From Escherichia phage SSBS18_WS_10_728, in sequence record MT322327.1: DNA of 64,000 nucleotides. One strand, written 5' to 3'. A program made the translations under genes and the position numbers. Below, one piece after another: positions 228-6,837 of the stretch. The notes under the pieces were generated by a model, which was not told the DNA's origin, made no database searches, and was given only the letters and a program-made list of their open reading frames with translations. Position 1 is the first letter of the stretch. The number at the start of each line of letters is the position of its first letter.

Positions 228-303
228 TGGAGAATCCGAAGGGACTCGAACCCTTATAAACCTGTTTTGCAGACAGGCACATAGCCATTTCTGTCACGGA
301 TTC
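228..303 (-). tRNA. tRNA-Cys (anticodon GCA)
   Basis: Manual fold: acceptor GAATCCG/CGGATTC, T-arm GGGTTCGAGTCCC, anticodon loop CUGCAAA, encoded CCA. Confidence 0.6.
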
Positions 304-307
304 AAAT

Positions 308-400
308 TGGAGGAAGATACCAGACTTGAACTGGTACACCGATTTCTCAGCTACTGGCAGTTTAGCAAACTGCTCCCTTACCTTTTAGGGTTAATCTTCC
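308..400 (-). tRNA. tRNA-Ser (anticodon GCU), class II with long variable arm
   Basis: Acceptor GGAAGAT/ATCTTCC, anticodon stem GCAGT/ACTGC with loop UUGCUAA, T-arm ACCAGTTCAAGTCTGGT, CCA encoded; 93 nt. Confidence 0.55.
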
Positions 401-401
401 A

Positions 402-1136
402 TTATTTCTGTAATGCGTTCTTCATTTCTGGTGTTGCAATAGTGTCAATCACACCAGTTTTACAAGCATCATCAAACCAGTCTGGTAAGATACCTGCTAA
501 GAACCCATTGATATTCGTTTTAAGGTACTCTGCAATAAGGGCAGCTTCTTCTTCAATCATCTGAACAACTTCATCTGCATAAGCTGTAATCTTTGAAATA
601 CCTTCATTAATCTTATTAACAGCTTGGTTAGCTAAATCAGAAATAGTATCAAGACCTTTATCAATAGCATCCTGTAAGTCACTTAATACATCATTAACAC
701 CATCTAGTGTACTGTTAATCATATCCATAGCTTTTTGACCATACTCTGTAGCAACACCCATAATACCACTAAACGGTGTACAGCCAACTTGTTCCCCTGC
801 TGCACCCATAACATTAGAATAGCCTTTTGCTACCTGCATACGTGATGAAAACTCATCAATGGACTTTTGACCATAATCCGTCAGTGTTTTAGTGGTTGAT
901 GTAGTGCTTGTCAGACTCGTTGTAAAGCTGTTAAGCAGAACTGTTGTAAGTCCAGCAGCAACAAGTTTATCCTTTATTGTAGGGTCTGTTACAGAGCTAA
1001 TAGAGCTTACAAGTGATGTAGAGGCAGCTACGGTTCCACCTAGAACTGCTGCACCAGTAATAAGGGGATTAGAAAACCCTCTACCGGTTTTTAAGAGATT
1101 AAAAATCTCCTTACCTTGTTCTGTCATCTCTTTCAT
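402..1136 (-). CDS. hypothetical protein (Thr/Ser-rich)
   Basis: ORF 402..1199; start moved to internal ATG at 1136 (AAAGG RBS) because the 5' end overlaps tRNA-Phe. Confidence 0.45.
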   Translation of the reverse strand: MKEMTEQGKEIFNLLKTGRGFSNPLITGAAVLGGTVAASTSLVSSISSVTDPTIKDKLVAAGLTTVLLNSFTTSLTSTTSTTKTLTDYGQKSIDEFSSRMQVAKGYSNVMGAAGEQVGCTPFSGIMGVATEYGQKAMDMINSTLDGVNDVLSDLQDAIDKGLDTISDLANQAVNKINEGISKITAYADEVVQMIEEEAALIAEYLKTNINGFLAGILPDWFDDACKTGVIDTIATPEMKNALQK

Positions 1137-1152
1137 TAAGCACCTTTGAAAT

Positions 1153-1228
1153 TGGTAGTCCAGTGGGATTTGAACCCTCTTCTCATGTTTTTCAGACACG
1201 CGCTTTAACCATATAAGCTACTTGGACT
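1153..1228 (-). tRNA. tRNA-Phe (anticodon GAA)
   Basis: Acceptor stem 6/7 bp, T-arm GGGTTCAAATCCC, anticodon loop CUGAAAA, CCA encoded. Confidence 0.6.
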
Positions 1229-1234
1229 ATAAAT

Positions 1235-1310
1235 TGGGGTGACCTACGGGATTTGAACCCGTATAGACCATGTTCACAGCATGGGTCATTACCGTTTATG
1301 ATAAGGCCAC
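1235..1310 (-). tRNA. tRNA-His (anticodon GUG)
   Basis: Acceptor GTGGCCT/AGGTCAC, T-arm ACGGGTTCAAATCCCGT, anticodon loop CUGUGAA. Confidence 0.55.
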
Positions 1311-1341
1311 ATTTAAGGACTCTCGTAAGAACCCTTAGAAG

Positions 1342-1417
1342 TGGCAGCGGCATAAGGATTTGAACCTTAATAAGACAGCTTCAGAGACTGCTGCATTGCC
1401 AGTTATGCTATACCGCT
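1342..1417 (-). tRNA. tRNA-Gln (anticodon CUG), tentative
   Basis: D-stem GCAT/ATGC, anticodon stem GCAGT/GCTGT with loop CUCUGAA, T-arm TAAGGTTCAAATCCTTA, CCA encoded. Confidence 0.5.
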
Positions 1418-1422
1418 AAATT

Positions 1423-1501
1423 TGGTACTCCATATCGGATTCGAACCGATACATAACACAGATTTTAAGTCTGGCCTCTCTGCCAATTGGAGTAATGGAG
1501 C
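1423..1501 (-). tRNA. tRNA with Leu-type anticodon UAA but short variable arm (isotype uncertain)
   Basis: T-arm ATCGGTTCGAATCCGAT, CCA encoded, D-loop AATTGGCAGAG shared with tRNA at 2246..2323; anticodon loop CUUAAAA. Confidence 0.4.
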
Positions 1502-1503
1502 AT

Positions 1504-1578
1504 TGGCGGGGGATGTTGGAATTGAACCAACTTCTTCGATTTCAAAGACCGAGGTTTTAACCTTGTAAACTAATCCCC
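1504..1578 (-). tRNA. tRNA-Gln (anticodon UUG), tentative
   Basis: T-arm GTTGGTTCAATTCCAAC, anticodon stem TCGGT/ATCGA with loop CUUUGAA, CCA encoded. Confidence 0.5.
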
Positions 1579-1587
1579 TTTAAATCT

Positions 1588-2145
1588 TTACTTTCTCAGT
1601 GGATGAATAAAGAATGCCAACATAACTCTTTCCCTTGAGAATGCTCTTTCTTCTGGGACAACACTTTTAAGTTTCCAACCAACATAAATTCTCCAGTAGA
1701 ATTGTTTACCAAAGACTTTAATTGATGGGATAAAAGCGAATAACCCCCAAGCATTGCTGTTCCACATTAGGAGATAACCTGTCTGATTATCTTCAGGGTC
1801 AGAGCTTACGTTGATATTACCTTTCCACTTAGTAACATCTTTTACATCTCTTCCTAACACATGGTAAGAGAAGTTATAAGCTTTGTTTCTCCAGAGCCAT
1901 CCAACTCTCTGCAAATAGACACCCAGCTTACCAATCTTTCTAATCTTAGCCCATCTTTTAATGTGACCTTCATCACCATCAATAGGGTTGTCATATGTCT
2001 CCATCCATCTGAATCCAAAAGGTAGATGTCCTTTCTTCTCACTATAGAATGGAACTACAAAAGGTGCTAAGATAACTGCTAAGATTGCTGCCAATGGGTC
2101 TAGCAAAGCTAGGAAAATCCATGAAGCATACTTCAAATATCTCAT
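1588..2145 (-). CDS. hypothetical membrane-anchored protein inside the tRNA cluster
   Basis: 185-aa ORF, hydrophobic N-terminus, AAGAGG RBS 8 nt upstream of ATG. Confidence 0.55.
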   Translation of the reverse strand: MRYLKYASWIFLALLDPLAAILAVILAPFVVPFYSEKKGHLPFGFRWMETYDNPIDGDEGHIKRWAKIRKIGKLGVYLQRVGWLWRNKAYNFSYHVLGRDVKDVTKWKGNINVSSDPEDNQTGYLLMWNSNAWGLFAFIPSIKVFGKQFYWRIYVGWKLKSVVPEERAFSRERVMLAFFIHPLRK

Positions 2146-2164
2146 TTAAATAGCCTCTTTAAAT

Positions 2165-2240
2165 TGGCGCAGGATAAGGGATTCGAACCCCTATTAACAG
2201 CTTCGTAGACTGTTGCTCTATCCATTTGAACTAATCCTGC
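2165..2240 (-). tRNA. tRNA-Arg (anticodon ACG)
   Basis: Acceptor GCAGGAT/ATCCTGC perfect, anticodon stem ACAGT/GCTGT with loop CUACGAA, T-arm GGGGTTCGAATCCCTT. Confidence 0.55.
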
Positions 2241-2245
2241 AAAAT

Positions 2246-2323
2246 TGGTGTTCCAAGACGGATTCGAACCGTCACTAGTACAAGGTTTGAGCTTGCATCC
2301 TCTGCCAATTGGGATACTGGAAC
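2246..2323 (-). tRNA. tRNA with Leu-type anticodon CAA but short variable arm (isotype uncertain)
   Basis: T-arm GACGGTTCGAATCCGTC, anticodon stem GCAAG/CTTGT with loop CUCAAAC, CCA encoded. Confidence 0.4.
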
Positions 2324-2324
2324 A

Positions 2325-2399
2325 TGGTACTCACTAAAGGACTTGAACCTTTTTCTTCATCTTGTAATGGTGATGTTTTACCATATAAACTAAGCGAGT
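2325..2399 (-). tRNA. tRNA-Val (anticodon UAC), tentative
   Basis: D-stem GTTT/AAAC, T-arm AAAGGTTCAAGTCCTTT, anticodon loop AUUACAA. Confidence 0.4.
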
Positions 2400-2494
2400 G
2401 TGGAAGAGGTCTGAAGTTGTGCCGCTAACTCAACTCCGTGGAATTTGTTACGGTCTTCAGTTGACACCAGCGGTCTTTCACTTGACCTCTGAAT

Positions 2495-2571
2495 TGGTGC
2501 TGCTCACAGGACTCGAACCTGCATTTCCATCCTTACAAGGGATGTGTAATAGCCAATTATACGAAAGCAGC
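2495..2571 (-). tRNA. tRNA-Thr (anticodon UGU)
   Basis: Anticodon stem CATCC/GGATG perfect with loop CUUGUAA, T-arm GCAGGTTCGAGTCCTGT, CCA encoded. Confidence 0.6.
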
Positions 2572-2577
2572 ATTGTT

Positions 2578-2652
2578 TGGAGCATCCAGAGGGAATCGAA
2601 CCCTCAACCTCAGTTTGGAAGACTGTAATTTTCCCGTTTAAACTATGGATGC
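2578..2652 (-). tRNA. tRNA-Gly (anticodon UCC)
   Basis: Acceptor GCATCCA/TGGATGC perfect, T-arm GAGGGTTCGATTCCCTC, anticodon loop CUUCCAA. Confidence 0.55.
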
Positions 2653-2658
2653 ACTAAT

Positions 2659-2734
2659 TGGTGGAGTCACTGAGAATTGAACTCAGTTCCCAAGTTTGCA
2701 AAACTCGAATTTTAACCATATAAACTATGACCCC
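2659..2734 (-). tRNA. tRNA-Ala (anticodon UGC)
   Basis: Acceptor GGGGTCA with G3:U70 pair, T-arm CTGAGTTCAATTCTCAG, anticodon loop UUUGCAA. Confidence 0.6.
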
Positions 2735-2740
2735 AATGTT

Positions 2741-2816
2741 TGGTACAGGTGGAGGGAATTGAACCCATCGTCTTACTGATTAAGAGTCAGCCGCATAACC
2801 ATTTTGCTACACCTGC
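2741..2816 (-). tRNA. tRNA-Lys (anticodon CUU), tentative
   Basis: Acceptor GCAGGTG/CACCTGT, anticodon stem GCTGA/TCAGT with loop CUCUUAA, weak T-stem; paralog of tRNA at 4057..4132. Confidence 0.45.
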
Positions 2817-2823
2817 ATTAATT

Positions 2824-2901
2824 TGGTAGGAGACAAGGGATTCGAACCCTCAAACACCAACTTCTAAGGATGGTAGGTTTACCAATTACCGTCAATCTCC
2901 C
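2824..2901 (-). tRNA. tRNA with Leu-type anticodon UAG but short variable arm (isotype uncertain)
   Basis: T-arm GAGGGTTCGAATCCCTT, CCA encoded, anticodon loop CUUAGAA with 4/5-bp stem. Confidence 0.4.
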
Positions 2902-3156
2902 ATTAAATCTTTTTAGAGAACTTCTAAGAACCTAAGCAACAAGGTTCCACAACAAGCTGTAATAACCTTAGAAGCCCTCTAAAAAGACCTAAATAGGTCT
3001 TTACATAGTCTTGTTTAATCCGGTGACTAGAACCTTTGGAGAGCTTGATATTATCTCTTCTCCGTGACACCTACTAGGTGCTTTACTGTGCGTGTACGAC
3101 AATACACGAGGGATAAACCGAAAATGCGAGCAAGCATGACGGTGTAAATCTTATTA

Positions 3157-3246
3157 GGCGGTAAGTAAAGGAGTCGAACCCTCACCGTATCTCTACAGTG
3201 GCAACAGTTTTCAAGACTGTTTGGCTGCCATTAGCCGCTACCTACC
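3157..3246 (-). tRNA. tRNA-Ser (anticodon UGA), class II
   Basis: Acceptor GGTAGGT/ACTTACC, anticodon stem ACAGT/ACTGT perfect with loop CUUGAAA, long variable arm, T-loop TTCGACT; 3' CC encoded. Confidence 0.6.
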
Positions 3247-3259
3247 CCTAATAAGACTT

Positions 3260-3342
3260 TGGCATGGGACGGAGGAGTTGAACCCCTTTGAAACGGTTTT
3301 GGAGGCCGTTGCTCATGCCTTAGAGTCTTAACATCGTCCCAC
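3260..3342 (-). tRNA. tRNA, possibly Trp (anticodon CCA); atypical length
   Basis: Acceptor GTGGGAC/GTCCCAT, T-arm AGGGGTTCAACTCCTCC, CCA encoded, hairpin with loop CUCCAAA; D region ~7 nt too long in my fold. Confidence 0.35.
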
Positions 3343-3484
3343 ACTATAATTCGAAGCTTACCGTATTTTCGCAACACTGTAAAGCCCCTTCTCAGATTAT
3401 TTACATGTTCTGGAAAACATGAGATACAGACCACCTCCTTACACGGAGACCCGATAAGGTCGTCTAAGCAATCTGCTAACTATT

Positions 3485-3561
3485 TGGCACACCCTACAGG
3501 ATTCGAACCTGTAACTCAATGATTAGAAGTCATTTGCTCTGTCCAGTTGAACTAAGGGTGC
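3485..3561 (-). tRNA. tRNA-Arg (anticodon UCU)
   Basis: Anticodon stem AATGA/TCATT perfect with loop CUUCUAA, T-arm ACAGGTTCGAATCCTGT, CCA encoded. Confidence 0.6.
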
Positions 3562-3854
3562 ATTAATCTTTAAAGACTCTCTTAGAAAGCCCTTAAAGAT
3601 GCCCACTTTATTAATCATACCGTGGGCTAGTACGCCAAATTCTTTGATGAGGGATTGGAAGACCTCACTGGTGTTTAGCCTATCAAGCTACTGCCAGAAA
3701 AACATTGTCGTTTGCATTTATTTTAAATTTGCAAAATAGACGCTACGCAACGAAAACTATTCAGAATATGTACAACAAATTTCCCCACATTGTGTTACGT
3801 CTAACGCTCATGTATTGGTGTTTGAATTATACATATTATGAATCATTTTTAGTT

Positions 3855-3883
3855 ACTATAAAGCGGTCACATCTCAATGTCAA
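3855..3883 (-). promoter_or_regulatory. sigma70-like promoter reading leftward into tRNA genes
   Basis: Minus strand: -35 TTGACA, 17-bp spacer, -10 TATAGT. Confidence 0.5.
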
Positions 3884-3898
3884 CAACTTTATTGAAAT

Positions 3899-3974
3899 TG
3901 GTACTGGTAGGTGGAATCGAACCACCGATATTCCCTTATCAGGGGAGTGTTATAACCTTCTTAACTATACCAGC
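3899..3974 (-). tRNA. tRNA-Ile (anticodon GAU)
   Basis: Acceptor GCTGGTA/TACCAGT, T-arm GGTGGTTCGATTCCACC, anticodon loop CUGAUAA. Confidence 0.55.
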
Positions 3975-3975
3975 T

Positions 3976-4052
3976 TGGAGGTTCAGATGGGAATCGAACC
4001 CACATTCATAGGGCTTATGAAACCCCTGCATTACCTTATCTGCGACTGAACC
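3976..4052 (-). tRNA. tRNA-Met (anticodon CAU; elongator or Ile2-type)
   Basis: Acceptor GGTTCAG/CTGAACC perfect, anticodon stem GGGGT/GCCCT with loop UUCAUAA, T-arm GTGGGTTCGATTCCCAT. Confidence 0.55.
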
Positions 4053-4056
4053 ATAT

Positions 4057-4132
4057 TGGTAGAAGTGGAGGGATTCGAACCCATCGCCTGTCAGATTAAA
4101 AGTCTGCCGCATCACCATTCTGCTACACTTCC
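4057..4132 (-). tRNA. tRNA-Lys (anticodon UUU)
   Basis: Acceptor GGAAGTG/CACTTCT, anticodon stem GCAGA/TCTGA with loop CUUUUAA, CCA encoded. Confidence 0.5.
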
Positions 4133-4333
4133 ATTAAATTATCTTTGTAGATAAGCTACCCAGACTTGCTTAAGGTCTGTAGCGATGTGCCTTGTTGGGT
4201 TTAAATCTAGAATTTACCCTTTCACCCTTTGTGGTCGCATACTCACAGGTAAGCTTAATAGCTCACCTACAAAGATAATTACCAGACCGTTGTTTATCAT
4301 CTTAAGTGCTACCATTACACCAACTCGACATCT

Positions 4334-4357
4334 GCCGAGTGAAGGAATCGAACCTTC
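4334..4357 (-). other. orphan tRNA T-arm-like element (possible tRNA remnant)
   Basis: Perfect T-arm GAAGGTTCGATTCCTTC on minus strand but no matching 5' acceptor strand or CCA nearby. Confidence 0.3.
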
Positions 4358-4393
4358 GCCTTTTCTTTACCGGAGAAATAGATTGTTTAAGTT

Positions 4394-4413
4394 TTGCTGT
4401 AAACGGTCTTCTG
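4394..4413. repeat. tRNA-cluster repeat copy A (TTGCTG-N5-GGTCTTCTG)
   Basis: One of four 20-nt copies; CCAGACC partner at 4281 and 4424. Confidence 0.6.
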
Positions 4414-4483
4414 TAAATTTGTTGAGCCAGACCAAGTTTTAAATTTTTTCAAAATTAAATTGGCTTGAAAATATCATACGTGC

Positions 4484-4503
4484 TTGCTGAATTTGGTCTT
4501 CTG
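4484..4503. repeat. tRNA-cluster repeat copy B
   Basis: TTGCTGAATTTGGTCTTCTG; CCAGACC partner at 4424. Confidence 0.6.
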
Positions 4504-4591
4504 CTCCTTTAAAGAACACTCGTAAGAACCCTTTAAGGGAGGGGCTAAAATAGCCCTCTCAAAACATCATCTTGAAATACTTATTATAATT

Positions 4592-4669
4592 TGGCGGTTA
4601 CGAAGGGATTTGAACCCTCATCATCTCCCGTGACAGGGGAGTATTTTAACCAGATTAAACTACATAACC
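4592..4669 (-). tRNA. tRNA-Asp (anticodon GUC)
   Basis: Anticodon stem CTCCC/GGGAG perfect with loop CUGUCAC, T-arm GAGGGTTCAAATCCCTT, CCA encoded. Confidence 0.65.
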
Positions 4670-4675
4670 TTTATT

Positions 4676-4763
4676 TGGTGTGCCGTGTAGGAGTCGAACC
4701 TACCGAGTCTCAATGACAAGGGATTTACAGTCCCCACCGCTACCATCTACGGGATAACGACAC
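4676..4763 (-). tRNA. tRNA-Tyr (anticodon GUA), class II
   Basis: Acceptor GTGTCGT/ACGGCAC, anticodon loop CUGUAAA, long variable arm, T-arm GTAGGTTCGACTCCTAC, CCA encoded; 88 nt. Confidence 0.6.
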
Positions 4764-4772
4764 ATTTAAATT

Positions 4773-4849
4773 TGGCGGTTAGTCAGGGATTCGAACCCTG
4801 TGCCATTCGCTTAACAGGCGACCGCACATACCTTATGTGCTTCCTAACC
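4773..4849 (-). tRNA. tRNA-Asn (anticodon GUU)
   Basis: D-stem GCAC/GTGC, anticodon loop CUGUUAA, T-arm CAGGGTTCGAATCCCTG, CCA encoded. Confidence 0.6.
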
Positions 4850-4900
4850 TTAATACATTGCCAGACCGTGTTTTTTCTTTTATCCGCAAAAAGTATTTTG

Positions 4901-4920
4901 TTGCTGAATACGGTCTTCTG
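4901..4920. repeat. tRNA-cluster repeat copy C
   Basis: TTGCTGAATACGGTCTTCTG, 6 nt from 3' end of tRNA-Met; CCAGACC partner at 4861. Confidence 0.6.
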
Positions 4921-4926
4921 CAAAAT

Positions 4927-5003
4927 TGGAGGCGGGTGCAGGAGTCGAACCTGCCGATACCATGCTAATGAGACATGTGAGACGCCCTTTCTCTATACCC
5001 GCA
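4927..5003 (-). tRNA. tRNA-Met (anticodon CAU), possible initiator
   Basis: Anticodon stem CATGT/GCATG with loop CUCAUUA, T-arm GCAGGTTCGACTCCTGC, unpaired 1:72 position, CCA encoded. Confidence 0.5.
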
Positions 5004-5067
5004 ATTCTTAATGACCAGACCAAATCTCTTCTTTGTCCGATTTACCTTCAGATGAATAAGATTAAGT

Positions 5068-5087
5068 TTGCTGTAATTGGTCTTCTG
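5068..5087. repeat. tRNA-cluster repeat copy D
   Basis: TTGCTGTAATTGGTCTTCTG, 7 nt from 3' end of tRNA-Glu; CCAGACC partner at 5015. Confidence 0.6.
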
Positions 5088-5094
5088 TCAAAAC

Positions 5095-5172
5095 TGGCGT
5101 TCCAGAAGGGATTTGAACCCTCAAATATCCACTTTGAAAGAGTGGTGACTTTACCATTTTGTCCACTGGAAC
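5095..5172 (-). tRNA. tRNA-Glu (anticodon UUC)
   Basis: Anticodon stem CCACT/AGTGG perfect with loop CUUUCAA, T-arm GAGGGTTCAAATCCCTT, CCA encoded. Confidence 0.6.
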
Positions 5173-5179
5173 ATTAATT

Positions 5180-5256
5180 TGGTCTCTGTTGGAGGACTTG
5201 AACCTCCGGCCTTACCGCCCCAAACGGAACGCTCTACCAAGCTGAGCTAAACAGAG
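5180..5256 (-). tRNA. tRNA-Pro (anticodon UGG)
   Basis: Acceptor CTCTGTT/AACAGAG perfect, anticodon loop UUUGGGG, T-arm GGAGGTTCAAGTCCTCC, CCA encoded. Confidence 0.6.
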
Positions 5257-5421: not shown

Positions 5422-6837
5422 TTACCAGATGTAACGGTCAATCATTACTGCTTTGAGCATTACGCTGGTTGGGTCAAACTTCTCACCACCAAGCAGAGCT
5501 TTTAAAGTGGCTGGAGAGAACCCTGATACCATTGCTACACCGTTATCCTTAACAGATACTTCGCAAGTACCATTACGGTTTGCTAAGTACCAGAATACCA
5601 GTTGTGGCATTTCGTATCCAGCTTTTTTGTACTTACTACGAATTGCTTCAAAGTTTGTACGACCATTTGCACCATCAACCTGATTAAACTCCATATCAGA
5701 GAAGATGATAAGCTTACTTGGCATATCTTTCTGAGTCAAGTTGTTTCTCTTACCTGTCTCAAGAATACGGTCAAAAGCTGCTTGTAAATTAGTTGAACCA
5801 TACTCAACATGACGCATCACCTGACGATGACGGTTTCGTAAATCACCACTCAGTTCGATGAAGTGAGGGTTTGTTGAGTAAACCATTAACTCATTCTTAA
5901 AGCAACCAGTATTGCGTTCTGCTACATACAAGGCAAGTGATACACCAATATCAAGTGCAGTGATTGAACCAAGATTCACCCAAGACATTGAGCTTGAAAC
6001 ATCAGTCATACACAAGATGTTCTCACCTTCTGCCATCCAGTTTGGTAGTGCTTTCCACTGCTCATTGGCAACATCTGCATTACCATGTTTGATAGACTTA
6101 ATCACATCGTATGGGTAAACAGCACCAGCGTTAATCTTAGCCTCACCCTTTGAGAGTGACTCGATGTAAGCTTTGTAACGTTCTCCATCTTTACGGTTAA
6201 AGAGTTTTTGGTAACGTGCAGCAGCAAGAGAAGGAATCTTACTGTAGTCGATTTTACCAAACTCATTAGCAGAGATTTTTTGCTCAACTGTATCAGAAAG
6301 TGCAGACAACAGTGTGCGGTACTCTTTCTCACTCAAGTTAGCAAACTTGCAGAAACGTTTTACAAACTGTTTGTGGCGTGGTTTTACTCGTGGTAACCAC
6401 TTGGCTGCTAAACCTGCTGTTTCAGGGTCTAGTAATGCTGCTTCTAAGTGCTTAAAGGCATCTGTCTCAAAACGAGTACCTACGAAGATTTTGAAGTCAT
6501 CAAAACGACCAAGCTCTGCAATCTTATCCATAATGCGAAGAACCTGTGTAGGCTCTAAAACTTTATCTTCAATTGCTTGAAGTAAAACAGTTCTGAAGGC
6601 TTTACGCTCACCCATACCTTCTCGTACATCTCGCATGTGAAGCAAAATACGAACTGCAACATCAACATCCTCACGCAAAGCTTTGTAGAACAAATCTGGT
6701 AAGATTTCTACATTACTACGGCTGGAACCAGCAGCTTTGTAAAAGTCCACAAGAGCAGACATTGATGAAGTATGGTTTACAGCACCATTTTCAGTTCGAC
6801 CTGCATGAAGGTGCGCATGTTTAAATAATTCGCTCAT
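5422..6837 (-). CDS. vWA-domain protein (MIDAS motif DxSxS), possibly DUF2828-like
   Basis: 471-aa ORF; motif MTDVSSSMS; GAGAG RBS upstream. Confidence 0.55.
   Translation of the reverse strand: MSELFKHAHLHAGRTENGAVNHTSSMSALVDFYKAAGSSRSNVEILPDLFYKALREDVDVAVRILLHMRDVREGMGERKAFRTVLLQAIEDKVLEPTQVLRIMDKIAELGRFDDFKIFVGTRFETDAFKHLEAALLDPETAGLAAKWLPRVKPRHKQFVKRFCKFANLSEKEYRTLLSALSDTVEQKISANEFGKIDYSKIPSLAAARYQKLFNRKDGERYKAYIESLSKGEAKINAGAVYPYDVIKSIKHGNADVANEQWKALPNWMAEGENILCMTDVSSSMSWVNLGSITALDIGVSLALYVAERNTGCFKNELMVYSTNPHFIELSGDLRNRHRQVMRHVEYGSTNLQAAFDRILETGKRNNLTQKDMPSKLIIFSDMEFNQVDGANGRTNFEAIRSKYKKAGYEMPQLVFWYLANRNGTCEVSVKDNGVAMVSGFSPATLKALLGGEKFDPTSVMLKAVMIDRYIW

What the first reader, a model, noticed from the sequence alone, without database searches (positions are those of the whole stretch)
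1423..2901. Three tRNAs with leucine anticodons but short variable arms
The tRNAs at 1423-1501 (UAA), 2246-2323 (CAA) and 2824-2901 (UAG) fold in my hands as 78-79-nt class I tRNAs, whereas bacterial tRNA-Leu is class II with a long variable arm. Two of them share the D-loop AATTGGCAGAG, so they are paralogs. Either these are unusual phage Leu decoders, or their identity differs from what the anticodon implies.
Basis: inference. Interest (0 to 1): 0.5.

Follow-up and report, generated by a model that had tools for sequence, protein, structure and literature searches.

The report
Phage leucine tRNAs lacking long arm
Three leucine tRNA genes of this Felix O1-like phage really do lack the long extra arm that bacterial leucine tRNAs normally have, but they keep every feature the host's charging enzyme is known to read, and the same short form occurs in many other phages and in Actinobacteria, so it is an under-noticed but not new kind of tRNA.

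Summary
ARAGORN and the Rfam tRNA model place three tRNA-Leu genes on the minus strand at exactly the stated coordinates (anticodons UAA, CAA, UAG). They are 75-76 nt plus an encoded CCA, and their variable regions are 7, 6 and 5 nt. The same cluster's tRNA-Ser (90, 93 nt) and tRNA-Tyr (88 nt) keep long arms.

The window is a Felixounavirus (96-98% identical to Escherichia phage CL1 and Salmonella relatives). The three genes are conserved in every sampled relative that carries a tRNA-Leu.

They are best read as working class I leucine tRNAs charged by the host LeuRS. They keep A73, U8, A14, A15-U48, G18G19, A20a and the 3-bp D stem. The E. coli enzyme is reported to need neither the arm nor the anticodon. 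The phage encodes no LeuRS, and its genes are rich in UUA, CUA and CUU.

The short form is widespread. It occurs in KVP40, Pseudomonas, Aeromonas, Streptomyces and Rhodococcus phages and a cyanophage. It made up 21 of 117 sampled viral tRNA-Leu(UAA), and 9 of 68 bacterial ones, all from Actinobacteria. Across 45 such tRNAs the cloverleaf shows strong covariation.

Charging is inferred, not shown. One paper found that E. coli LeuRS does not charge the Streptomyces class I tRNA-Leu. Moderate interest: a new member of a known kind.

The parts
1423..1501 (-). tRNA-Leu(UAA), class I. 76-nt body plus encoded CCA. 3-bp D stem with 11-nt loop CAAUUGGCAGA. C.U mismatch at 27:43. 7-nt variable region GUUAUGU. 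G1.U72 and A73.
   Evidence: ARAGORN. Rfam tRNA 47.5 bits. At least 99% identical in 255 phage records.
2246..2323 (-). tRNA-Leu(CAA), class I. 75-nt body plus CCA. Same D-arm type (A9, C13, CAAUUGGCAGA). 6-nt variable region ACUAGU. A73.
   Evidence: ARAGORN. Rfam tRNA 43.6 bits. Two near-identical alleles in 24 Felixounavirus-like loci.
2824..2901 (-). tRNA-Leu(UAG), class I, of a second architecture. 75-nt body plus CCA. G9 and D loop UAAUUGGUAAA, with one extra nucleotide in the acceptor/D connector or the 5' D loop. U.U mismatch in the anticodon stem. 5-nt variable region UGUUU. G1.U72 and A73.
   Evidence: ARAGORN. Rfam tRNA 40.0 bits with a forced alternative register. Allelic variants have fully compensated anticodon stems (CCAUC/GUUGG, UCUCG/CGAGA, CCUCG/CGAGG).
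228..5256 (-). Context: a cluster of 26 tRNA genes (19 amino acids, no Trp), all on the minus strand and all with encoded CCA. It is interrupted by two ORFs and several non-tRNA spacers.
   Evidence: ARAGORN. Rfam. ORFs. Pfam DUF7217 and DUF7338 for the two ORFs.
308..400 (-). tRNA-Ser(GCU), 93 nt, ordinary class II. Internal control showing the phage keeps long arms where the synthetase needs them.
   Evidence: ARAGORN.
3157..3246 (-). tRNA-Ser(UGA), 90 nt, class II (control).
   Evidence: ARAGORN.
4676..4763 (-). tRNA-Tyr(GUA), 88 nt, class II with a stem-loop variable arm (control).
   Evidence: ARAGORN structure drawing.

Best explanation
These are three functional, phage-encoded leucine isoacceptor tRNAs of the class I (short variable region) shape.

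Shown:
- They fold as canonical cloverleaves without a variable arm.
- They are conserved in Felix O1-like phages.
- They belong to a broad family of arm-less tRNA-Leu.

Inferred:
- After transcription and processing within the 26-gene cluster, they are charged with leucine by the host (E. coli or Salmonella) LeuRS. [quoted passage not shown] All of those elements are kept.
- They then decode UUA/UUG (UAA), UUG (CAA) and CUA/CUG, probably also CUU (UAG). These codons are common in this 39% G+C phage and are served by minor tRNAs in the host.
- The arm could be lost only in Leu. Bacterial SerRS and TyrRS use the long arm, and LeuRS does not. This explains why the phage's Ser and Tyr tRNAs remain class II.
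For: Structure:
- ARAGORN and Infernal folds.
- On 45 class I tRNA-Leu, 98% of cells in the cloverleaf are paired and 19 of 20 pairs show double changes. Slid controls give 35-50%.
- The UAG alleles have compensatory anticodon stems.

Identity set:
- A73 in 45/45, U8 in 45/45, G18 in 45/45, G19 in 44/45, A20a in 43/45.
- A15-U48 in 44/45, and the one exception covaries to G15-C48.
- The D loop C-AAUUGGCAGA differs from the host's G-AAUYGGUAGA only at positions 13 and 20.

Literature:
- In E. coli, A73 and the tertiary elements A15-U48, G18G19 and A20a define leucine identity. The long arm and the anticodon do not, and arm-less minimal tRNA-Leu stays active (PMC9976931).
- tRNAscan-SE isotype models rank Leu first for the Sf14 counterparts, whose Mooglevirus relative Sf13 carries a 98.7% identical Leu(UAA) (PMC12482277).

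Other:
- No LeuRS homologue in the window plus the remainder of the closest genome; best tblastn E = 2.4.
- Codon use in 63 window ORFs, as a share of Leu codons: UUA 24.9%, CUU 27.2%, CUA 10.9%, CUG 15.1%. From general knowledge, E. coli uses about 13%, 10%, 4% and 50%.
- In 52 viral loci with class I Leu, all 66 Ser and 26 Tyr tRNAs keep long arms.
Against: - No aminoacylation, expression or suppression data exist for these tRNAs, so charging by host LeuRS is an inference.
- Fan et al. 2019 (PMC6614811) found that E. coli LeuRS did not charge the class I tRNA-Leu(CAA) of Streptomyces coelicolor and described it as charging only type II. That tRNA has C48, whereas the phage tRNAs have U48.
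- The three genes have the lowest Rfam scores among the cluster's 22 class I tRNAs apart from tRNA-Phe (45.0 bits): 40-47.5 bits.
- The UAG gene has an irregular D arm and a U.U mismatch.
- One relative (L262) has lost a gene through a chimeric deletion, so individual genes are dispensable.
Confidence: 0.8

Rival explanations
1. Loss of the arm is adaptive rather than merely tolerated. The arm-less shape lets the phage's leucine decoders escape a nuclease or other tRNA-directed effector that recognises host class II tRNA-Leu. That effector could be a host defence or the phage's own host shut-off. This concerns why the shape exists and is compatible with the tRNAs being charged by host LeuRS.
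For: - Class I tRNA-Leu recurs in phages of unrelated hosts whose own tRNA-Leu is class II: Vibrio KVP40, Pseudomonas 16Q, Aeromonas Akh-2 and a cyanophage.
- At least two core architectures occur, A9/C13 and G9/G13, suggesting more than one origin.
- tRNA-targeting antiphage nucleases, including bacterial Schlafens, exist, and human SLFN11 is selective for type II tRNAs (PMC13056530).
- From memory, not checked here: T-even infection cleaves a host tRNA-Leu.
Against: - No bacterial or phage nuclease specific for the tRNA-Leu variable arm turned up in the literature searches. The characterised bacterial Schlafen cuts anticodon arms of Lys, Met and Ala tRNAs.
- T4 (from memory) and T5, which infect the same hosts, keep class II tRNA-Leu.
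- Some phages carry both classes.
- Actinobacteria use the short form natively.
Confidence: 0.15
2. The tRNAs carry leucine anticodons but are charged with another amino acid or with none. They would act as mis-sense decoders, decoys or non-translational tRNA-like RNAs.
For: - The class I shape is atypical for bacterial tRNA-Leu.
- E. coli LeuRS did not charge one natural class I tRNA-Leu (PMC6614811).
- Rfam scores are comparatively low.
Against: - They lack the determinants of the other anticodon-independent systems: 3:70 is U-A, U-A and G-C, there is no long arm, and there is no G-1.
- A73 plus the Leu-type D loop and Levitt pair are conserved.
- Isotype models rank Leu first (PMC12482277).
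- Systematic mis-sense at about 8% of codons would be highly deleterious, yet the genes are conserved in more than 250 genomes.
Confidence: 0.04
3. The genes are decaying relics: class II tRNA-Leu genes that suffered deletions and are on their way to being lost.
For: - A chimeric CAA/UAA gene in one relative, and loci lacking one of the three.
- tRNA-like remnants elsewhere in the cluster.
Against: - At least 99% identity across 255 records.
- Intact 7-bp acceptor stems, T arms and encoded CCA.
- Compensatory substitutions.
- The same architecture in distant phages and in housekeeping actinobacterial genes.
- Coordinated core changes, G9 to A9 and R13 to C13, rather than a simple deletion.
Confidence: 0.03
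4. Prediction artefact: with the correct fold the anticodon lies elsewhere or a long arm is present.
For: Infernal chose a shifted acceptor register for the UAG gene. Plain minimum-free-energy folding does not return cloverleaves.
Against: - A 75-76 nt body cannot hold a class II arm.
- Two independent tools agree on the anticodon loops.
- Covariation supports the cloverleaf.
Confidence: 0.01

Closest known systems
Type I tRNA-Leu(CAA) of Streptomyces coelicolor (Fan et al., NAR 2019, PMC6614811)
   Same: A bacterial-type tRNA-Leu with a 5-nt variable loop, co-existing with class II tRNA-Leu in a cell that has a single LeuRS. Its U8-A14 pair matters for charging.
   Different: - It is a cellular housekeeping gene of an actinobacterium.
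- Its variable loop is ACAGC, with C48 rather than U48.
- Its LeuRS does not use A73 and needs a special leucine-specific domain.
- E. coli LeuRS did not charge it.
- The phage tRNAs must work with an enterobacterial LeuRS, and they keep A73 and A15-U48.
Actinobacterial chromosomal class I tRNA-Leu(UAA) (Gordonia, Nocardia, Mycobacterium, Herbiconiux and others; found here)
   Same: Same A9/C13 core and D arm (AGCCCAAYUGGCAGAGGC), G1.U72 or G1-C72, A73 and U48. About 70% identical to the window's UAA gene.
   Different: Cellular rather than viral, G+C-rich, with a 5-nt variable loop versus 6-7 nt in the window's UAA and CAA genes.
Host class II tRNA-Leu (E. coli leuZ, leuX, leuW, leuV) and the class II tRNA-Leu of coliphages T5 and T4 (from memory)
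   Same: Same anticodons, A73, a 3-bp D stem with 13.22 unpaired, D loop AAUYGGNAGA, U48, and G1.U72 in leuZ. Presumably the same LeuRS.
   Different: They have 13-15 nt variable arms with a stem, and G9 and G13. The phage genes have 5-7 unpaired nt, and the UAA and CAA genes have A9 and C13.
Class I tRNA-Leu genes of other phages (KVP40 x3, Pseudomonas 16Q x2, Aeromonas Akh-2 x3, Streptomyces Daubenski x2, Rhodococcus Trina, cyanophage P-RSM6), and the short-loop tRNA-Leu(UAG) in horizontally transferred mycobacterial tRNA clusters (PMC6582537)
   Same: Same shape and identity nucleotides, located inside multi-tRNA clusters, with Ser and Tyr remaining class II.
   Different: Different hosts and only 53-76% sequence identity. 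In GenBank they are annotated simply as tRNA-Leu. Only the mycobacterial paper remarks on the short loop, in one sentence.
Animal mitochondrial tRNA-Leu(UUR/CUN)
   Same: Class I shape, with A73 and A14 as identity elements (PMC9976931).
   Different: Organellar, with a dedicated mitochondrial LeuRS and often degenerate D and T loops. No evolutionary link is implied.
Engineered arm-less E. coli tRNA-Leu variants (minimal tRNA-Leu, SELEX variants, the VLAD mutant)
   Same: They show that E. coli LeuRS, and the enzymes TrmL and MiaA, tolerate loss of the arm (PMC9976931; PMC4615657).
   Different: Laboratory constructs. The phage genes are natural and carry remodelled core positions 9 and 13.

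Membership tests
Canonical elongator tRNA (Rfam RF00005) | Cloverleaf with a 7-bp acceptor stem, D arm, 5-bp anticodon stem, 7-nt loop with U33, T arm GUUCRANYC, and a score above the gathering threshold | tested here: met
   47.5, 43.6 and 40.0 bits against a threshold of 29. ARAGORN structures. 98% of cells paired with covariation.
Bacterial class II (long-arm) tRNA-Leu | Variable region of more than 10 nt forming a stem-loop | tested here: not met
   Variable regions of 7, 6 and 5 nt without a stem. Host and T5 tRNA-Leu have 13-15 nt.
Bacterial class II (long-arm) tRNA-Leu | Core nucleotides G9 and purine 13 | tested here: not met
   In the surveyed class II Leu set, N9 is G in 90/109 and N13 is a purine in 106/109. 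The window's UAA and CAA genes have A9 and C13. The UAG gene has G9 but an irregular arm.
Substrates of E. coli-type LeuRS (leucine identity set) | Discriminator A73 | tested here: met
   A73 in all three genes and in 45/45 aligned class I Leu.
Substrates of E. coli-type LeuRS (leucine identity set) | Tertiary core: U8:A14, Levitt pair A15-U48, G18G19 in the Leu-type D-loop register, and A20a | tested here: met
   All are present by sequence in the UAA and CAA genes, with the same spacing as E. coli tRNA-Leu. In the UAG gene they are present but offset by one extra nucleotide 5' of A14.
Substrates of E. coli-type LeuRS (leucine identity set) | Actual leucylation by the host enzyme | not testable with these tools
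   Needs an aminoacylation assay or charge-seq. The literature is divided: arm-less E. coli constructs are active (PMC9976931), and the S. coelicolor type I tRNA-Leu is not charged (PMC6614811).
Class I (short variable region) tRNA-Leu | Leucine anticodon with an unpaired variable region of 4-7 nt ending in pyrimidine 48 | tested here: met
   40 of 45 family members have 5 nt; the window's genes have 7, 6 and 5.
Class I (short variable region) tRNA-Leu | A9/C13 core with D arm NNC-CAAYYGGCAGA-GNN | tested here: met
   Met for the UAA and CAA genes. The UAG gene belongs to the minority G9 type, as do Akh-2 and 16Q UAG.
tRNA-Ser, tRNA-Ala and tRNA-His (other anticodon-independent identities) | Long arm with G73 (Ser), G3:U70 (Ala), or G-1 (His) | tested here: not met
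   There is no long arm. 3:70 is U-A, U-A and G-C. There is no extra 5' G paired with position 73.

The most novel reading that the evidence does not exclude
Arm-less tRNA-Leu is a virus-favoured tRNA architecture that has arisen or spread repeatedly among phages of class II hosts. The arm would be a liability during infection, for example as the handle for a tRNA-Leu-directed nuclease or modification. Alternatively, the arm-less form could give the phage a privately tuned leucine-decoding channel on a host LeuRS thought to be restricted to class II substrates.
Probability: 0.12. Interest if true: 0.7.

Novelty: new member of a known kind. Interest (0 to 1): 0.4.

Why it matters
[quoted passage not shown] The one bacterial exception studied in depth concluded that E. 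coli LeuRS handles only class II substrates.

Here, a very common group of coliphages and Salmonella phages, some used in typing and biocontrol, carries three arm-less tRNA-Leu genes. In pattern-limited samples about a fifth of viral tRNA-Leu(UAA) share this shape.

If these tRNAs are charged in enterobacteria, three things follow:
- They are natural proof that the arm is dispensable for a proteobacterial LeuRS.
- They are compact leucine tRNA scaffolds for engineering.
- Isotype-specific tRNA annotation should expect class I Leu in viral data.

If they are not charged, their strict conservation would need a different explanation. Either outcome can be tested with a simple aminoacylation assay.

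Tried and rejected
- Long-arm or shifted-anticodon folds. Rejected by length and by two independent predictors. The Infernal register for the UAG gene gives a 6-bp acceptor stem and ignores the encoded A-CCA, so I preferred ARAGORN's.
- Plain ViennaRNA minimum-free-energy folds do not give cloverleaves. This is usual for unmodified tRNA sequences, and I gave it no weight.
- Looked for the phage tRNA-Leu(UAA) in 5,426 complete E. coli genomes, to see whether prophages carry it. No match.
- Looked for a phage LeuRS. None in this phage. The 74 'phage' records with LeuRS-like ORFs are mostly Listeria, Staphylococcus and Enterococcus records, unnamed 'Bacteriophage sp.' entries and very large uncultured phages; I did not inspect the 9 Escherichia/Salmonella records among them, but the window plus the rest of the CL1 genome has no LeuRS homologue.
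- Tested the 'recent paralogs' idea. Pairwise identities do not support a special UAA-CAA relationship.
- Literature searches for an explicit description of arm-less tRNA-Leu in phages found only a one-sentence remark on a mycobacterial horizontally transferred tRNA cluster (PMC6582537).
- Considered a link to type II-specific Schlafen-like nucleases. The only characterised bacterial Schlafen is not type II-specific.
- The first neutral pattern (C32, GGCAGA) over-represents class I, so I added two more scans and report the pooled figure.
- Asked whether the neighbouring 471-aa protein is Ro/TROVE-like. Pfam gives only DUF2828 and DUF7788, and there is no PDB sequence match, so this is left open.
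Full report
**What is there**

ARAGORN finds 26 tRNA genes, all on the minus strand, between 228 and 5256.
- c[1423,1501], anticodon UAA, 79 nt.
- c[2246,2323], anticodon CAA, 78 nt.
- c[2824,2901], anticodon UAG, 78 nt.

Every gene in the cluster ends in an encoded CCA, which ARAGORN counts. The mature bodies are therefore 76, 75 and 75 nt.

The Rfam tRNA model matches all three above threshold, at 47.5, 43.6 and 40.0 bits against a gathering score of 29. From the ARAGORN drawings and a direct parse, the variable regions are GUUAUGU, ACUAGU and UGUUU, with no stem. E. coli leuZ, leuX, leuW and leuV and phage T5 tRNA-Leu have 13-15 nt there.

The phage's own tRNA-Ser (93 and 90 nt) and tRNA-Tyr (88 nt) are normal class II tRNAs.

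**Whose genome**

The first 6 kb is 96-98% identical to Escherichia phage CL1, C600M2 and many Salmonella and Shigella phages of the genus Felixounavirus (Ounavirinae). In all, 347 phage records match.

The tRNA-Leu(UAA) gene is at least 99% identical in 255 records, and most list it simply as tRNA-Leu. In 27 Felixounavirus-like IMG/VR loci every tRNA-Leu is 77-79 nt, every tRNA-Ser 89-93 nt and every tRNA-Tyr 88 nt.

**Are they real, constrained tRNAs?**

I aligned 45 distinct arm-less tRNA-Leu from this phage group, other phages, viral contigs and bacteria. I then counted a standard cloverleaf on the alignment:
- 98.0% of cells are standard pairs, against 59% in shuffles and 35-50% when partners are slid.
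- 19 of 20 pairs show changes on both sides.

Within Felixounaviruses the UAG gene occurs with three different, fully complementary anticodon stems: CCAUC/GUUGG (one U.U), UCUCG/CGAGA and CCUCG/CGAGG.

The Levitt pair is A15-U48 in 44 of 45 sequences, and G15-C48 in the single exception. These are the marks of functional L-shaped tRNAs, not of relics.

**Identity**

By established knowledge, summarised in PMC9976931 and PMC6614811, E. coli LeuRS recognises A73, A14 (U8:A14), A15-U48, G18G19 with U55/C56, and A20a. The anticodon and the long arm are not required. Constructs lacking both the anticodon arm and the variable arm are still leucylated.

All of these elements are present:
- A73 in 45/45.
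- U8 in 45/45.
- G18 in 45/45 and G19 in 44/45.
- A20a in 43/45.
- U48 in 44/45.

The UAA and CAA genes have a 3-bp D stem, an unpaired 13.22 and the loop C-AAUUGGCAGA. The host's G-AAUYGGUAGA has the same spacing.

Determinants of the other anticodon-independent systems are absent. There is no G3:U70, no long arm with G73, and no G-1.

For the counterpart tRNAs of Shigella phage Sf14 (the Mooglevirus relative Sf13 carries a 98.7% identical Leu(UAA)), published tRNAscan-SE isotype scores rank Leu highest for all three (PMC12482277).

The phage has no LeuRS. tblastn of E. coli LeuRS against the window plus the rest of the CL1 genome gives only chance hits, best E = 2.4. The part of the genome outside the window is the structural module.

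**Use**

In 63 long ORFs of the window (15,166 codons, 38.9% G+C), Leu codons split as follows:

| Codon | Share of Leu codons |
|---|---|
| UUA | 24.9% |
| UUG | 14.1% |
| CUU | 27.2% |
| CUC | 7.9% |
| CUA | 10.9% |
| CUG | 15.1% |

From general knowledge, E. coli uses about 50% CUG and about 4% CUA. The three phage anticodons therefore cover the codons the phage favours and the host serves with minor tRNAs.

The anticodon loop of the UAA gene (CUUAAAA) keeps the A36-A37-A38 motif used by MiaA. [quoted passage not shown] Normal anticodon-loop modification is therefore plausible, though this is inference.

**How unusual is the shape?**

BLAST with the UAA gene found full-length, gap-free matches to short tRNA-Leu genes in unrelated phages. 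ARAGORN on the fetched loci confirmed these body lengths:

| Phage | Class I tRNA-Leu genes | Body length (nt) |
|---|---|---|
| Vibrio phage KVP40 | 3 | 74-75 |
| Pseudomonas phage 16Q | 2 | 75 |
| Aeromonas phage Akh-2 (Demerecviridae) | 3 | 74 |
| Streptomyces phage Daubenski | 2 | 74-75 |
| Rhodococcus phage Trina (plus two class II) | 1 | 73 |
| Cyanophage P-RSM6 | 1 | 74 (as annotated) |

T5 has a class II tRNA-Leu of 85 nt.

I also ran scans that specify only the D loop and the anticodon loop, so they are blind to the arm. Each returns the first 120 rows. Counts are true tRNA-Leu(UAA):

| Pattern | Collection | Short | Long |
|---|---|---|---|
| TGGCAGA-N7-10-CTTAAAA | IMG/VR | 17 | 23 |
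| TGGCAGA-N7-10-TTTAAAA | IMG/VR | 1 | 2 |
| TGGTAGA-N7-10-YTTAAAAT | IMG/VR | 3 | 71 |
| Pooled viral | IMG/VR | 21 | 96 |
| TGGCAGA-N7-10-CTTAAAA | GTDB genomes | 9 | 59 |

The pooled viral figure is 21 short of 117. These figures depend on the pattern, and IMG/VR includes prophage-flanking host tRNAs, so they are rough.

All nine short genes from the bacterial genomes come from Actinobacteria: Gordonia, Herbiconiux, Nonomuraea, Nocardia, Mycobacterium, Actinomycetaceae, Mycetocola, IMCC26103 and an uncultured actinomycete.

In 52 viral loci with a class I Leu, all 66 tRNA-Ser and 26 tRNA-Tyr keep long arms. This fits the known dependence of bacterial SerRS on the arm (PMC9976931) and, from general knowledge, of bacterial TyrRS too.

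**Two architectures**

Class II tRNA-Leu in my collection have G9 (90/109) and a purine at 13 (106/109). Class I tRNA-Leu mostly have A9 (42/59) and C13 (47/59).

The window's UAA and CAA genes are of this A9/C13 type. So are the actinobacterial genes and most phage genes.

The window's UAG gene belongs to a minority G9 type shared with Akh-2 and 16Q UAG. It has one extra nucleotide before A14 and looks like a class II core without the arm.

Some Felixounaviruses carry a different A9/C13-type tRNA-Leu(UAG) at the same locus.

The UAA and CAA genes are 72% identical, while UAA is 75-76% identical to tRNA-Leu of Pseudomonas, Aeromonas and Rhodococcus phages.

**What is known already**

- Class I tRNA-Leu is textbook for animal mitochondria.
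- It has been studied in Streptomyces coelicolor (PMC6614811).
- A short-loop tRNA-Leu(UAG) in a horizontally acquired mycobacterial tRNA cluster was noted in one sentence (PMC6582537).
- I found no paper describing it in phages of Proteobacteria or cyanobacteria.
- The 2023 identity review states that the arm is universal outside animal mitochondria.

The main tension is that Fan et al. saw no charging of the Streptomyces class I tRNA by E. coli LeuRS. That tRNA has C48 (variable loop ACAGC), and its cognate enzyme does not use A73. The phage tRNAs keep both A73 and A15-U48. This difference could explain a different outcome, but that is inference.

**Verdict**

These are real, conserved, almost certainly functional leucine tRNAs of the class I shape. 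They are charged by host LeuRS (confidence about 0.8) and belong to a widespread but little-remarked family. Why the arm was lost remains open: either tolerated streamlining, which I favour, or escape from a tRNA-Leu-directed effector, which is speculative.

Novelty: a new member of a known kind. Interest is moderate, mainly because a simple assay would settle whether an enterobacterial LeuRS accepts natural class I substrates.

Noticed in passing
window 3258-3347 (minus strand): A tRNA-like element next to tRNA-Ser(UGA). It has a 7-bp acceptor stem (GTGGGAC/GTCCCAT), discriminator G plus encoded CCA, a T arm, a long extra arm and an aberrant 8-nt 'anticodon' loop. ARAGORN finds it only at a relaxed threshold, and it scores a weak 23 bits on the tRNA-Sec model. 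The 26 regular tRNAs cover 19 amino acids; Trp is missing.
   Followed up: partly
window 4278-5095 (repeat copies at 4394, 4484, 4901 and 5068; partner CCAGACC at about 4281, 4427, 4861 and 5017): Four copies of a 28-nt motif, TTGCTGWAANNGGTCTTCTG. Each is preceded 40-115 nt upstream by its inverted partner CCAGACC. Together they form hairpin-bounded units in the spacers between tRNA genes. They could be processing signals, promoters or small stable RNAs like those annotated in the T5 tRNA region.
   Followed up: partly
window 2903-2992 and 4137-4280: Two long imperfect hairpins in non-tRNA spacers: 26-nt arms at 85% complementarity, and 22-nt arms at 91%. Neither matches an Rfam family at gathering score.
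   Followed up: no
window 2824-2901 versus loci L250, L255-L258, L266, L267 and L269: The tRNA-Leu(UAG) locus is polymorphic among Felixounaviruses. Some genomes carry the window's irregular G9-type gene, with three compensated anticodon-stem variants. Others carry an unrelated A9/C13-type class I tRNA-Leu(UAG) only 57% identical to it. This is allelic replacement within a conserved cluster.
   Followed up: partly
locus L262 (IMGVR_UViG_2974574300_000001, 84,419 bp): This relative has a chimeric tRNA with the 5' part of Leu(CAA) and the 3' part of Leu(UAA), and it lacks a separate CAA gene. That indicates a roughly 0.8-kb deletion by recombination through the shared CCAATTGGCAGAG. The acceptor halves no longer pair.
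   Followed up: partly
window 5422-6837 (minus strand); L002 1326-2972: The 471-aa ORF flanking the tRNA cluster is DUF2828 plus DUF7788. Relatives annotate it as vWFA or 'RNA-binding protein'. Streptomyces phage Daubenski encodes a 'Ro-like RNA binding protein' inside its own tRNA cluster. A link between such proteins and phage tRNA or tRNA-like RNAs may be worth testing. There is no PDB sequence match.
   Followed up: partly
loci L133, L141, L172, L176, L179, L193, L204, L219 and L230: All nine short tRNA-Leu(UAA) found in a sample of 68 from bacterial genomes are from Actinobacteria, as single chromosomal genes. The arm-less form therefore appears to be the native UUA decoder in several actinobacterial families, beyond the one Streptomyces CAA case in the literature.
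   Followed up: partly
window 4340-4390 (minus strand): A fragment resembling the T arm and acceptor 3' half of a tRNA: 22 bits on the tRNA model, and 73% identical to part of tRNA-Ile. It is probably a tRNA gene remnant.
   Followed up: no
window 2740-2824 and 4056-4140: The two tRNA-Lys genes (CUU and UUU) are 82% identical over 85 nt. They are the clearest recent paralog pair in the cluster.
   Followed up: no
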